From the NCBI RefSeq assembly GCF_003334355.1, contig NZ_QOWP01000022.1: a DNA stretch of 64,000 bases; one strand, given 5' to 3'. The notes beneath the pieces are model-generated. The model had not been told where the DNA came from and ran no database searches. It worked only from the letters and a program-made list of their open reading frames with translations. This DNA is from Escherichia coli. GTDB taxonomy: Bacteria; Pseudomonadota; Gammaproteobacteria; Enterobacterales; Enterobacteriaceae. Position numbers and translations under genes: made by a program. Below, piece after piece: positions 31,581-56,160 of the stretch. Numbering within the stretch: the first letter of the stretch is position 1; the number at the start of each line of letters is the position of its first letter.

Positions 31581-33005
31581 TTACTGCATTAACAGGTAGA
31601 TGGTGCTGTCGCCGCGCTGAATGTTGAGTGCCAGCACAGACGGTTTGCTGTCGAGAACTTTACGCAGTTCAGCGATGTTTTTCACTGCCTGCTGGTTCGC
31701 GCCAATAATCACATCACCTTTCTTCAGGCCGATCTGCGCAGCCGGAGTGCCCGTTTTCACGTTGTTCACTACCACGCCCTGATCTTTGCCTTTGTTGCTC
31801 ATCTCAGCGCCTTCAATGCCGTTGAAGATGGAGCTGGAATCAACCTGATTCTGGCTGCTCTGCTGCAGTTCCAGGTTCACGTTAACCTGCTTACCGTCGC
31901 GCAGTAAGCCCAGGGTCAGTTTGCTGCCTACCGGCATAGTACCCACCTGAGCACGCAGTGCGGCAAAGCTGCTGATCGGCTTACCGTTCAGTGAGGTGAT
32001 CACATCACCCGCTTTAATGCCCGCTTTTGCAGCGGAGGAATTAGGCAGAACCTGGCTTACGAAAGCACCGCGCTGGGCGTCAACTTTCATCGCTTTCGCC
32101 AGTTCGGAGTTCAGCTCAGTCCCCATAATACCCAGCTCACCGCGTTTCACCTGGCCGTATTCCACCATCTGCGAGGTCAGGTTTTTCACCATGTTACTCG
32201 GGATAGCAAAACCGATACCGATGTTGCCGCCGTCCGGTGCGAGGATCGCGGTGTTGATACCGATCAGTTCGCCGTTCAGGTTAACCAGCGCACCACCGGA
32301 GTTACCACGGTTGATCGCTGCATCGGTCTGGATGAAGTTTTCGTAGTTTTCGGCATTCAGGCCGCTACGCCCCAGCGCAGAGACAATCCCGGAAGTTACC
32401 GTCTCGCCCAGACCAAACGGGTTACCAATCGCTACGGTGTAATCACCCACGCGCAGTGCATCAGAATCCGCCATCTTAATTGCGGTCAGGTTTTTCGGGT
32501 TCTGGATTTGGATCAGCGCGATATCAGAGCGCGGATCTTTGCCAACCATCTTCGCGTCGAACTTACGGCCATCGCTCAGTTGAACTTTAATGACCGTCGC
32601 GTTATCAACAACGTGGTTGTTGGTGACGACATAGCCTTTATCGGCATCAATGATGACGCCGGAACCCAGCGCCATGAATTTCTGTTGCTGGCCGCCACCA
32701 TTACCGCCCTGGCCACCCTGGCAGAACGGAGAGCTCTGGAACGGAGAACCTTCCTGGCAGAACGGAGAATCATCACCGAAGAACTGCTGGAAATTACGCG
32801 GCATACGCGGCGTATTAACGGTTGTGCTACCTTCTACGTTAATGCTGACCACTGAAGGCATCACCTTTTCGAGCATCGGTGCAAGGCTTGGCATCTGCTG
32901 GGCTGTCGTTGCTGAAGAAGTCTCAGCCGCCGTTGCAGAGAGCGGAGATAACGCCAAACCTAAACTCAGAGCCAGTGCACTCAGTGCTAATGTGGTTTTT
33001 TTCAT
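31581..33005 (-). CDS. degP: periplasmic serine endoprotease/chaperone DegP (HtrA)
   Basis: 474 aa ORF with signal peptide, trypsin-like domain (GNSGG) and two PDZ regions. Confidence 0.97.
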   Translation of the reverse strand: MKKTTLALSALALSLGLALSPLSATAAETSSATTAQQMPSLAPMLEKVMPSVVSINVEGSTTVNTPRMPRNFQQFFGDDSPFCQEGSPFQSSPFCQGGQGGNGGGQQQKFMALGSGVIIDADKGYVVTNNHVVDNATVIKVQLSDGRKFDAKMVGKDPRSDIALIQIQNPKNLTAIKMADSDALRVGDYTVAIGNPFGLGETVTSGIVSALGRSGLNAENYENFIQTDAAINRGNSGGALVNLNGELIGINTAILAPDGGNIGIGFAIPSNMVKNLTSQMVEYGQVKRGELGIMGTELNSELAKAMKVDAQRGAFVSQVLPNSSAAKAGIKAGDVITSLNGKPISSFAALRAQVGTMPVGSKLTLGLLRDGKQVNVNLELQQSSQNQVDSSSIFNGIEGAEMSNKGKDQGVVVNNVKTGTPAAQIGLKKGDVIIGANQQAVKNIAELRKVLDSKPSVLALNIQRGDSTIYLLMQ

Positions 33006-33050
33006 GTATTTCAGTCTCGATTAACAGATAACGCAAAATTGCTGTGTTCT

Positions 33051-53768: not shown

Positions 53769-53797
53769 GGCGGGAAATGCTCCCGCCTTATTTTTTG
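53769..53797 (+). terminator. intrinsic terminator downstream of dksA, immediately upstream of gluQ
   Basis: ggcgggaaatgctcccgcc followed by ttattttttg. Confidence 0.75.
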
Positions 53798-53806
53798 TTC
53801 AAAGAG

Positions 53807-54703
53807 ATGACAGACACACACTATATTGGCCGCTTCGCCCCCTCTCCTTCCGGCGAGCTTCATTTTGGTTCTCTGATTGCTGCGCTTGGCAGCTATTTGC
53901 AGGCTCGCGCCCGGCAAGGTTGCTGGCTGGTACGTATAGAAGATATCGACCCGCCTCGTGAAGTTCCCGGTGCCGCAGAAACTATCCTGCGCCAGCTGGA
54001 ACATTACGGCCTGCACTGGGACGGCGATGTTCTCTGGCAATCGCAACGTCACCACGCCTATCGCGAAGCACTCGCCTGGTTACGTGAGCAAGGGCTAAGT
54101 TATTACTGCACCTGCACGCGTGCGCGTATTCAAAGCATTGGCGGTATTTACGACGGTCATTGCCGGGAGTTGCATCATGGACCAGACAACGCCGCAGTGC
54201 GTATCCGCCAGCAGCATCCGGTCACCCAGTTTACTGACCTGCTGCGAGGCATTATTCACGCCGACGAAAAACTGGCACGGGAAGATTTTATTATTCATCG
54301 CCGTGATGGTTTGTTTGCCTATAACCTGGCGGTGGTGGTGGATGATCACTTCCAGGGCGTGAGCGAAATTGTCCGCGGGGCAGATTTGATCGAACCGACA
54401 GTGCGGCAAATCTCGCTGTACCAGCTTTTTGGCTGGAAAGTGCCAGATTACATTCATCTGCCGCTGGCGCTTAATCCACAAGGCGCTAAACTTTCCAAGC
54501 AGAATCATGCGCCTGCGTTGCCGAAAGGCGATCCACGCCCGGTACTAATCGCGGCACTTCAATTTCTGGGGCAGCAGGCAGAAGCACACTGGCAGGATTT
54601 CAGCGTCGAGCAAATCCTTCAGTCAGCCGTCAAAAACTGGCGGCTTACCGCAGTGCCTGAGTCGGCAATTGTAAATTCAACATTCTCAAATGCGTCATGC
54701 TGA
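53807..54703 (+). CDS. gluQ: glutamyl-Q tRNA(Asp) synthetase (YadB)
   Basis: Class I aaRS-like [26 protein letters not shown]...; start at 53807 chosen because the upstream in-frame ATG at 53777 lies inside the dksA terminator; start uncertain. Confidence 0.85.
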
Positions 54704-54762
54704 GCTATGATTAGCCGCTATTTTTTTGTCCTGAATGATGTTTGACACTACCGAGGTGTACT

Positions 54763-56160
54763 ATTTTTACCCGAGTCGCTAATTTTTGCCGCAAGGTGCT
54801 AAGCCGCGAGGAAAGCGAGGCTGAACAGGCAGTCGCCCGTCCACAGGTGACGGTGATCCCGCGTGAGCAGCATGCTATTTCCCGCAAAGATATCAGTGAA
54901 AATGCCCTGAAGGTAATGTACAGGCTCAATAAAGCGGGATACGAAGCCTGGCTGGTTGGCGGCGGCGTGCGCGACCTGTTACTTGGCAAAAAGCCGAAAG
55001 ACTTTGACGTAACCACTAACGCCACGCCTGAGCAGGTGCGCAAACTGTTCCGTAACTGCCGCCTGGTGGGTCGCCGTTTCCGTCTGGCTCATGTGATGTT
55101 TGGCCCGGAGATTATCGAAGTTGCGACCTTCCGTGGACACCACGAAGGTAACGTCAGCGACCGCACGACCTCCCAACGCGGGCAAAACGGCATGTTGCTG
55201 CGCGACAACATTTTCGGCTCCATCGAAGAAGACGCCCAGCGCCGCGATTTCACTATCAACAGCCTGTATTACAGCGTAGCGGATTTTACCGTCCGTGATT
55301 ACGTTGGCGGTATGAAGGATCTGAAGGACGGCGTTATCCGTCTGATTGGTAACCCGGAAACGCGCTACCGTGAAGATCCGGTACGTATGCTGCGCGCGGT
55401 ACGTTTTGCCGCCAAATTGGGTATGCGCATCAGCCCGGAAACCGCAGAACCGATCCCTCGCCTCGCTACCCTGCTGAACGATATCCCACCGGCACGCCTG
55501 TTTGAAGAATCGCTTAAACTGCTACAAGCGGGCTACGGTTACGAAACCTATAAGCTGCTGTGTGAATATCATCTGTTCCAGCCGCTGTTCCCGACCATTA
55601 CCCGCTACTTCACGGAAAATGGCGACAGCCCGATGGAGCGGATCATTGAACAGGTGCTGAAGAATACCGATACGCGTATCCATAACGATATGCGCGTGAA
55701 CCCGGCGTTCCTGTTTGCCGCCATGTTCTGGTACCCACTGCTGGAGACGGCACAGAAGATCGCCCAGGAAAGCGGCCTGACCTATCACGACGCTTTCGCG
55801 CTGGCGATGAACGACGTGCTGGACGAAGCCTGCCGTTCACTGGCAATCCCGAAACGTCTGACGACGTTAACCCGCGATATCTGGCAGTTGCAGTTGCGTA
55901 TGTCCCGACGTCAGGGTAAACGTGCATGGAAACTGCTGGAGCATCCTAAGTTCCGTGCGGCTTATGACCTGTTGGCCTTGCGAGCTGAAGTTGAACGTAA
56001 CGCTGAACTGCAGCGTCTGGTGAAATGGTGGGGTGAGTTCCAGGTTTCCGCGCCACCAGACCAAAAAGGGATGCTCAACGAGCTGGATGAAGAACCGTCA
56101 CCGCGTCGTCGTACTCGTCGTCCACGCAAACGCGCACCACGTCGTGAGGGTACCGCATGA
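54763..56160 (+). CDS. pcnB: poly(A) polymerase I (non-AUG start)
   Basis: Recognised PcnB; no ATG or GTG precedes the conserved N-terminus [19 protein letters not shown]; start placed at the ATT codon at 54763 (465 aa). Confidence 0.88.

What the first reader, a model, noticed from the sequence alone, without database searches (positions are those of the whole stretch)
54742..54766. pcnB has no canonical start codon upstream of its conserved N-terminus
The conserved PcnB N-terminus ([18 protein letters not shown]) is preceded in frame only by a TTG at 54742 and an ATT at 54763, and the first in-frame ATG is more than 50 codons downstream. This fits the reported use of a rare AUU initiation codon that keeps poly(A) polymerase I levels low.
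Basis: partly seen in the sequence, partly recalled or inferred. Interest (0 to 1): 0.35.

Follow-up and report, generated by a model that had tools for sequence, protein, structure and literature searches.

The report
pcnB starts at a rare ATT codon
The E. coli poly(A) polymerase gene pcnB here begins at the weak, non-standard start codon ATT, a textbook case published in 2002 and already annotated this way, so the finding is correct but ordinary.

Summary
In the pcnB frame a TGA stop lies at 54736-54738. Between it and the conserved [13 protein letters not shown]-terminus the only plausible starts are TTG (54742) and ATT (54763). The first in-frame ATG is codon 52 (54916).

RefSeq starts pcnB at this ATT (465 aa). 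Binns & Masters 2002 showed AUU initiation that limits PAP I synthesis.

My comparative data agree:
- ATT is present in 84 of 84 loci examined: 80 Enterobacteriaceae species-representative genomes plus Enterobacter, Klebsiella, Proteus and Aeromonas records.
- An invariant GAGGTG Shine-Dalgarno sequence sits 4 nt upstream of it.
- 45 of 84 loci have no ATG, GTG or TTG between the upstream stop and ATT. The TTG is therefore dispensable.
- The downstream ATG is Leu in 56 of 79 species.
- No complete E. coli genome tested carries ATG, ATC or ATA in place of ATT in the tested 32-mer context.

One possibly new detail: codons 1-9 are almost frozen at synonymous sites across Enterobacteriaceae. This is the lowest of 363 windows in the gene, and the neighbouring genes folK and gluQ show nothing like it. 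It suggests an RNA-level constraint on the initiation region beyond the start codon.

Verdict: already known, low interest.

The parts
54683..54711 (+). Sigma-70-type promoter-like site: -35 TTCTCA at 54683-88, a 17-nt spacer, and -10 TATGAT at 54706-11. It overlaps the gluQ stop codon (54701-03). It is probably the published pB promoter. The transcription start site was not mapped here.
   Evidence: It is the only promoter-like hit in 54300-55000. Both hexamers and the TAGCCGCTATTTTT that follows are conserved from E. coli to Proteus and Aeromonas. pB is described as the major promoter in PMC2939334.
54736..54738 (+). In-frame TGA stop that closes the pcnB reading frame upstream.
54742..54744 (+). 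In-frame TTG. This is the start of the mechanical 472-aa ORF and the older assumed start. It is probably not used.
   Evidence: It has no purine-rich Shine-Dalgarno sequence upstream. No in-frame ATG, GTG or TTG lies upstream of ATT in 45 of 84 loci. Where a TTG exists, its position varies between -7, -10, -11 and -13.
54753..54758 (+). Shine-Dalgarno sequence GAGGTG. It has 6-nt complementarity to the 16S rRNA 3' end and lies 4 nt before ATT.
   Evidence: It is invariant in all 74 distinct haplotypes and in all 84 loci. The complementarity to CACCUC rests on established knowledge of 16S rRNA.
54763..54765 (+). ATT, the translation initiation codon of pcnB.
   Evidence: This is the RefSeq CDS start. 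ATT is present in 84 of 84 loci. No E. coli genome carries ATG, ATC or ATA here. The literature is cited.
54763..54789 (+). Codons 1-9 (ATT TTT ACC CGA GTC GCT AAT TTT TGC), a block that is nearly frozen at synonymous sites.
   Evidence: Mean synonymous codon entropy is 0.05 against a gene median of 0.97. The block ranks 1 of 363 windows, and 0 of 100000 random draws reach it. folK and gluQ in the same loci show no such block.
54763..56160 (+). pcnB coding sequence: poly(A) polymerase I, 465 aa plus the stop codon.
   Evidence: NCBIfam NF008634 PcnB equivalog scores 997 bits against a cut-off of 702 and covers residues 1-464. PDB 3AQK/L/M/N 'Poly(A) polymerase' covers residues 28-442.
54796..54798 (+). 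GTG at codon 12, the first canonical in-frame codon after ATT. It is a rival start and is considered unlikely.
   Evidence: GTG is present in 79 of 79 Enterobacteriaceae and is TTG in Proteus. However, codons 2-11 vary only at third positions and keep their amino acids. The only Shine-Dalgarno-like AAGG abuts the codon.
54916..54918 (+). First in-frame ATG (codon 52), the Liu & Parkinson 1989 start. It may serve a truncated isoform made from pS1 transcripts.
   Evidence: PMC2939334 discusses it as start +1(b). It is Met in only 23 of 79 species and Leu in 56.

Best explanation
pcnB, which encodes poly(A) polymerase I (PAP I), is translated from the ATT at 54763. The 30S ribosomal subunit is positioned by the GAGGUG Shine-Dalgarno sequence at 54753-58. 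Initiator tRNA pairs imperfectly with AUU, and such complexes are discriminated against by initiation factor IF3. Initiation is therefore inefficient and PAP I stays at a few tens of molecules per cell, which matters because excess PAP I is toxic. The transcript most likely comes from the conserved promoter at 54683-54711 inside the 3' end of gluQ.

Shown here:
- the codon layout;
- the RefSeq start at ATT;
- invariance of ATT and the Shine-Dalgarno sequence across 84 loci and 5,421 of 5,425 E. coli genomes;
- a coding signature that begins at ATT;
- the upstream TTG and the downstream ATG are both dispensable.

Taken from the literature: AUU is the experimentally determined start and limits expression; PAP I is scarce and toxic in excess.

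Inferred: IF3 discrimination applies to pcnB as it does to infC, and the promoter-like site is pB.
For: Sequence and annotation:
- Searches give the layout.
- the RefSeq CDS starts at the base equal to window 54763 (465 aa).
- RefSeq also starts Enterobacter pcnB at ATT.

Comparative data:
- ATT is present in 84 of 84 loci, and 45 of 84 have no ATG, GTG or TTG between the upstream stop and ATT.
- GAGGTG at -10 to -5 is invariant, while the 4 nt between it and ATT vary.
- codon -1 changes non-synonymously (Thr/Asn/Ile/Ala/Pro). In codons 2-12 all 5 variable sites are third positions. There are no indels in the first 60 codons. Codon 52 is ATG in only 23 of 79 species.
- the neighbouring folK start flips between ATG and GTG (38 vs 30) in the same loci, while pcnB ATT never changes.
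- the 32-mer around ATT is exact in 5,421 of 5,425 E. coli genomes, and no ATG, ATC or ATA variant was found.

Protein family:
- the PcnB equivalog profile aligns from residue 1 of the ATT-started protein.

Literature:
- cite Binns & Masters 2002.
- One search reports AUU at about 1-2% of AUG in reporters.
- One search reports 30-50 PAP I molecules per cell and toxicity on overexpression.
Against: - No experimental start-site mapping could be examined directly. The primary paper is not held, and no initiation-profiling data for E. coli pcnB were found.
- Codons 1-9 are also frozen at the nucleotide level. Their amino-acid conservation alone therefore cannot distinguish coding constraint from RNA constraint. 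The coding signature rests on a few third-position changes and on Proteus and Aeromonas.
- GTG at codon 12 is invariant and cannot be excluded as a minor start.
- PMC2939334 reports two anti-PAP I bands and a sigma-S promoter inside the coding region, so a second isoform may exist.
- One paper's introduction still names UUG as the start.
Confidence: 0.94

Rival explanations
1. Translation starts at the upstream TTG (54742) and gives a 472-aa protein. ATT would then be an ordinary internal isoleucine codon.
For: TTG is the only standard bacterial start in frame upstream of the conserved N-terminus. The introduction of PMC3561954 names UUG as the pcnB initiation codon.
Against: - No Shine-Dalgarno-like sequence precedes it.
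- 45 of 84 loci, including Klebsiella and Proteus, have no in-frame canonical codon upstream of ATT. Where a TTG exists, its position varies.
- The peptide between TTG and ATT is not conserved; only the Shine-Dalgarno nucleotides are.
- ATT never becomes ATC or ATA, although other Ile codons in the gene do.
- RefSeq and the discussion section of the same paper use AUU.
Confidence: 0.02
2. Translation starts at GTG codon 12 (54796) and gives a 454-aa protein. The conserved sequence upstream would be an untranslated leader.
For: It is the first canonical in-frame codon after ATT in 79 of 79 Enterobacteriaceae. It never varies although valine is four-fold degenerate, and it is TTG in Proteus.
Against: - Codons 2-11 keep their amino acids, and all variable sites are third positions. 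Changes in Proteus and Aeromonas are conservative and in frame.
- The invariant GAGGTG would lie 38 nt upstream of this GTG. Only an AAGG that abuts the codon is available as a Shine-Dalgarno sequence.
- The PcnB equivalog profile includes the 11 residues upstream of it.
Confidence: 0.02
3. The downstream ATG (54916) is used, either alone or as a second start on transcripts from the internal sigma-S promoter pS1. It would give an N-terminally truncated PAP I.
For: PMC2939334 shows that pS1 is active in vitro and, in vivo, in ppGpp-null stationary cells. It notes a Shine-Dalgarno sequence plus AUG downstream and two anti-PAP I bands on western blots.
Against: - Codon 52 is Leu in 56 of 79 Enterobacteriaceae.
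- The 51 upstream codons are open, free of indels and under purifying selection.
- The truncated form would lack residues 28-51, which are part of the crystallised enzyme.
- The AAGG lies only 2 nt from the ATG.
- pS1 is silent in wild-type cells.

As the sole start this is excluded. As a conditional minor isoform in E. coli it stays open.
Confidence: 0.1

Closest known systems
E. coli K-12 pcnB AUU initiation (Binns & Masters 2002, Mol Microbiol 44:1287)
   Same: It is the same gene in the same species, with the same codon, the same Shine-Dalgarno sequence and the same 465-aa product as RefSeq WP_010723084.1. The 70 nt around the start are identical in 5,417 of 5,425 complete E. coli genomes, including K-12 W3110.
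   Different: Nothing substantive differs. This window comes from a non-K-12 strain and is 100% identical to strain E308 over 401 nt.
infC (IF3) AUU start codon
   Same: It is the other confirmed AUU start in E. coli. In both genes the weak start limits expression, and AUU is discriminated against by IF3. In both genes the codon is phylogenetically conserved.
   Different: infC forms an autoregulatory loop because its product is the discriminating factor. No such feedback is known for pcnB. IF3 sensitivity of pcnB was not tested here.
Enterococcus faecalis ebpA ATT start
   Same: A rare ATT start attenuates expression of a protein whose excess is costly (PMC4447247).
   Different: The gene, organism and function are unrelated. 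In that case the database annotation used a downstream ATG, whereas pcnB is already annotated at ATT.

Membership tests
PcnB / poly(A) polymerase I (NCBIfam NF008634 equivalog) | Full-length match above the curated cut-off. | tested here: met
   The match scores 997.1 bits against a cut-off of 702. Residues 1-464 align to profile positions 1-468 of 469. PDB 3AQK-3AQN 'Poly(A) polymerase' is identical over residues 28-442.
PcnB / poly(A) polymerase I (NCBIfam NF008634 equivalog) | Conserved genomic context dksA-gluQ-pcnB-folK. | tested here: met
   RefSeq features appear in this order in E. coli E308 and in Enterobacter. The pcnB-folK pairing also holds in Legionella, Amphritea and Acinetobacter.
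Genes initiated at a non-canonical AUU codon (infC/pcnB class) | Conserved coding sequence extends upstream of every canonical in-frame start. | tested here: met
   [10 protein letters not shown] (codons 2-11) lies upstream of the first GTG. All 5 variable sites are third positions. 45 of 84 loci have no ATG, GTG or TTG between the upstream stop and ATT.
Genes initiated at a non-canonical AUU codon (infC/pcnB class) | AUU lies at a functional distance from a Shine-Dalgarno sequence. | tested here: met
   GAGGTG sits at -10 to -5 and is invariant in 84 loci.
Genes initiated at a non-canonical AUU codon (infC/pcnB class) | The AUU codon itself is conserved, with no drift to synonymous Ile codons or to AUG. 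| tested here: met
   ATT is present in 84 of 84 loci. No E. coli genome has ATG, ATC or ATA here. Other Ile codons in the gene vary.
Genes initiated at a non-canonical AUU codon (infC/pcnB class) | Experimental proof that the protein N-terminus derives from AUU, and that changing AUU to AUG raises expression. | not testable with these tools
   This is known only through papers that cite Binns & Masters 2002. The primary paper is not held.
Genes initiated at a non-canonical AUU codon (infC/pcnB class) | Repression by IF3 (discrimination against AUU). | not testable with these tools
   The general property of AUU mRNAs is described in PMC5499595. Its application to pcnB is an inference.

The most novel reading that the evidence does not exclude
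Beyond the known AUU start, the pcnB initiation region carries a nucleotide element of about 37 nt that is frozen across Enterobacteriaceae. It runs from the Shine-Dalgarno sequence at 54753 to codon 9 at 54789 and includes an invariant rare CGA codon and two U5 tracts. Its synonymous sites are constrained far more than anywhere else in the gene. This could be an undescribed cis-acting RNA signal. Candidates are a binding site for a regulator (a protein or small RNA, such as Hfq), or a sequence context needed for productive or tunable initiation at AUU. Either would add a second layer of translational control over poly(A) polymerase I.
Probability: 0.25. Interest if true: 0.4.

Novelty: already known. 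Interest (0 to 1): 0.1.

Why it matters
Poly(A) polymerase I tags bacterial RNAs for decay and controls plasmid copy number. Too much of it polyadenylates mature tRNAs and kills the cell (PMC3561954). The weak AUU start is one of the devices that keep it scarce.

This has been established since 2002 and is already in the annotation, so the finding adds no new biology. The comparative data here give independent support. They also show that the weak start is actively maintained: it never drifts to ATG, although a single T-to-G change would do it.

The only possibly new lead is the synonymous-site freeze over codons 1-9. It is directly testable by recoding those codons.

Tried and rejected
Tool access:
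The genome scan succeeded on the fourth try. The search for homologous proteins was dropped as unnecessary.
- Binns & Masters 2002 is not in the held library, so experimental details come second-hand.
- A search for initiation-profiling data (pcnB plus retapamulin) returned only an S. aureus paper.
- A search for 'pcnB mRNA' turned up no described RNA element.

RNA structure and known RNA families:
- I considered a hairpin that would sequester the Shine-Dalgarno sequence (GGUG 54755-58 pairing with UACC 54768-71). The 141-nt region folds no better than shuffled sequence (z = +1.35; 186 of 200 shuffles fold at least as well). The pairing is broken in Proteus (UAAC) and Aeromonas (UUCC). Rejected.
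- Rfam has no match in 54600-55000 even at E <= 1.

Alternative starts:
- Codon 29 (GTG in this window, ATG in 72 of 79 species) was considered as a conserved internal start. It is GTA in another E. coli and ATT in Atlantibacter, and it has no Shine-Dalgarno sequence. Rejected.

Left open:
- One of the four E. coli genomes with a variant inside 54752-54775 was not characterised.
- The phylogenetic limit of the ATT start beyond Aeromonas was not mapped. Amphritea and Neisseria have an ATG available. Acinetobacter and Legionella are annotated with TTG.

Full report
**What is in the sequence.** The window region is the E. coli dksA-gluQ-pcnB-folK locus. A 401-nt query around the finding is 100% identical to E. 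coli strain E308 and at least 95% identical in 5,425 of 5,426 complete E. coli genomes.

In the pcnB frame the sequence reads as follows:
- TGA at 54736-38, then TGT;
- TTG at 54742-44;
- ACA CTA CCG AGG TGT ACT;
- ATT at 54763-65;
- TTT ACC CGA GTC GCT AAT TTT TGC CGC AAG GTG..., which translates as [11 protein letters not shown].

The first in-frame ATG is at 54916-18, which is codon 52 counted from ATT.

There are two small corrections. TTG is itself a standard bacterial start, so 'no canonical start' overstates the case. In-frame GTGs also exist at codons 12, 29 and 31 (54796, 54847, 54853), inside the N-terminal region.

**Annotation and literature.** RefSeq annotates pcnB in the identical genome from the base that corresponds to 54763. 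This gives the 465-aa WP_010723084.1. The Enterobacter hormaechei gene is annotated from its ATT as well.

The protein matches the NCBIfam PcnB equivalog NF008634 from residue 1, at 997 bits against a cut-off of 702. It is identical over residues 28-442 to the crystallised E. coli poly(A) polymerase, PDB 3AQK-3AQN.

The held papers say the following:
- pcnB translation starts at a non-canonical AUU and is limited by it (Binns & Masters 2002, cited in PMC2939334, PMC3561954, PMC4447247 and PMC9764084).
- infC and pcnB are the only two confirmed AUU starts in E. coli (bioRxiv 10.1101/063800 and PMC5499595).
- AUU initiates at roughly 1-2% of AUG in reporter constructs.
- AUU mRNAs are the ones most repressed by IF3.
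- PAP I is present at about 30-50 molecules per cell and is toxic when overproduced.

The primary 2002 paper is not held.

**Independent comparative test.** I gathered three sets of sequences:
- A scan of species-representative genomes returned 80 Enterobacteriaceae loci.
- Chromosomes misfiled in the plasmid collection supplied Enterobacter, Klebsiella, Proteus and Aeromonas.
- The same source gave the more distant Legionella, Amphritea, Neisseria and Acinetobacter.

The results for the 84 closer loci are:
- The codon homologous to 54763 is ATT in 84 of 84 loci.
- GAGGTG at -10 to -5 is invariant, while the four bases between it and ATT vary.
- In 45 of 84 loci there is no in-frame ATG, GTG or TTG between the upstream stop and ATT. 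Where a TTG occurs, its position differs (-7, -10, -11 or -13).
- The stretch upstream of the Shine-Dalgarno sequence cannot be aligned as protein.
- Codon -1 changes non-synonymously (Thr, Asn, Ile, Ala, Pro). In codons 2-12 all five variable sites are third positions. There are no indels in the first 60 codons.

Coding constraint therefore begins at ATT.

The downstream ATG at codon 52 is Met in only 23 of 79 species and Leu in 56. It cannot be the general start.

In the same loci the folK start flips between ATG and GTG (38 vs 30), whereas pcnB ATT never changes.

Within E. coli, the 32-mer 54748-54779 is exact in 5,421 of 5,425 genomes. Three of the four exceptions carry ACT-to-ATT at codon -1, which makes ATT ATT. 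No genome has ATG, ATC or ATA in place of ATT. One variant was not characterised.

**Mechanism.** The best-supported reading is the published one. The 30S subunit is positioned by GAGGUG, initiator tRNA decodes AUU poorly, and IF3 destabilises such complexes. Little PAP I is made as a result. The invariance of ATT, when a single T-to-G change would create ATG, argues that weak initiation is selected for.

The step 'AUU is the start and limits expression' rests on the literature. The step 'IF3 discrimination applies to pcnB' is an inference from the general behaviour of AUU mRNAs.

Transcription probably comes from the only sigma-70-like site in the region, TTCTCA-17 nt-TATGAT at 54683-54711, which overlaps the gluQ stop. 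Both of its hexamers are conserved out to Proteus and Aeromonas. This fits the published pB promoter, but I did not map the transcription start.

**Rivals.**
- TTG at 54742 has no Shine-Dalgarno sequence and is not conserved. One paper's introduction still calls the start UUG.
- GTG at codon 12 is invariant in 79 of 79 species and is TTG in Proteus. The ten codons before it carry a coding signature, and no Shine-Dalgarno sequence is correctly spaced for it.
- ATG at codon 52 is proposed to serve transcripts from the internal sigma-S promoter pS1 and to explain a second western-blot band. It may exist as a conditional isoform in E. coli, but it is absent from most relatives.

**One thing that may be new.** Codons 1-9 (54763-54789) are almost invariant at synonymous sites across 79 Enterobacteriaceae.
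- Mean codon entropy is 0.05 against a gene median of 0.97.
- The block ranks 1 of 363 nine-codon windows.
- 0 of 100,000 random draws of nine codons reach this value.
- The block includes a rare CGA arginine codon that is fixed in 79 of 79 species.
- folK and gluQ in the same loci show no 5' freeze; their lowest window means are 0.86 and 0.76.

The region is not unusually structured (z = +1.35). A candidate hairpin linking the Shine-Dalgarno sequence to codon 3 is broken in Proteus and Aeromonas. Rfam has no match, and I found no paper describing such an element. The cause is unknown. It could be a context requirement for AUU initiation or a regulator binding site.

**Verdict.** The phenomenon is already known and already annotated. 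Interest is low.

Noticed in passing
window 54763-54789 (with the Shine-Dalgarno sequence at 54753-58): Codons 1-9 of pcnB are nearly frozen at synonymous sites across 79 Enterobacteriaceae. Mean codon entropy is 0.05 against a gene median of 0.97, the lowest of 363 windows. The block includes an invariant rare CGA codon and two U5 tracts. folK and gluQ in the same loci show nothing similar. No structure, Rfam family or publication explains it.
   Followed up: partly
window 54883-54900: A second patch of low synonymous variation lies at pcnB codons 41-46 (CGC AAA GAT ATC AGT GAA; the first three codons are invariant in 79 of 79). It lies just upstream of the internal ATG and of the PS1.rev primer site, so it may overlap the published sigma-S promoter pS1. 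The position of pS1 could not be read from the text.
   Followed up: no
window 54683-54719: The promoter-like site TTCTCA-17 nt-TATGAT and the TAGCCGCTATTTTT that follows straddle the gluQ stop codon. They are conserved from E. coli to Proteus and Aeromonas. A GCTATGATTAGCG motif also precedes pcnB in Acinetobacter.
   Followed up: partly
window 54753-54758: Papers describe the pcnB ribosome-binding site as 'poor'. The sequence nevertheless has a 6-nt GAGGTG complementary to the 16S rRNA 3' end, at reasonable spacing and invariant in 84 loci.
   Followed up: partly
window 54796-54798: Codon 12 is GTG in 79 of 79 Enterobacteriaceae with no synonymous change, and TTG in Proteus. It is therefore always a potential start codon. 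This may be chance or a minor alternative start.
   Followed up: partly
window 54847-54849: Codon 29 is GTG in this window but ATG in 72 of 79 Enterobacteriaceae. It is GTA in another E. coli and ATT in Atlantibacter. The crystallised construct starts at residue 28, and the broad TIGR01942 pcnB model starts at residue 31. The first 30 or so residues therefore look like a lineage-specific N-terminal extension.
   Followed up: partly
L030 and L031, codon -7 (about 1480-1482): Salmonella enterica subsp. diarizonae and arizonae have an in-frame ATG seven codons upstream of ATT, where E. coli has TTG. No Shine-Dalgarno sequence precedes it. Whether it is used is unknown.
   Followed up: no
L002 130-135; also L013 and L019: A tandem ATT ATT (codon -1 changed from ACT to ATT) occurs in 3 of 5,425 E. 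coli genomes, in E. whittamii and in Escherichia sp. MOD1-EC7003. RefSeq still starts the gene at the second ATT.
   Followed up: yes
L007 1129-1153: Legionella adelaidensis pcnB is annotated from a TTG at 1153. An in-frame ATC at 1129 lies 6 nt after a GGTGA and opens a lysine- and isoleucine-rich N-terminus. This could be another non-canonical start; the idea is speculative.
   Followed up: no
window 56157-56160: The folK ATG overlaps the pcnB stop codon (ATGA), which suggests translational coupling. The folK start codon alternates between ATG and GTG among Enterobacteriaceae, 38 vs 30.
   Followed up: partly
window 53777-53809: The mechanical gluQ ORF starts at ATG 53777 (308 aa). RefSeq annotates a 298-aa product whose start corresponds to 53807 (MTDTHY...).
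   Followed up: no
window 23095-23204 (-), 24043-24129 (-), 33000-33045 (-): There are Rfam matches above gathering score elsewhere in the window: the CssrA small RNA, t44 RNA and the HtrA 5' UTR thermometer.
   Followed up: no
plasmid collection records CP125156.1, NZ_OL790812.1, NZ_AP026896.1, NZ_CP119142.1 and others: Several PLSDB 'plasmid' records of 2-5 Mb are evidently whole chromosomes: Klebsiella, Proteus, Aeromonas, Neisseria, Acinetobacter and E. coli. They were useful here as a source of pcnB loci from other species.
   Followed up: no
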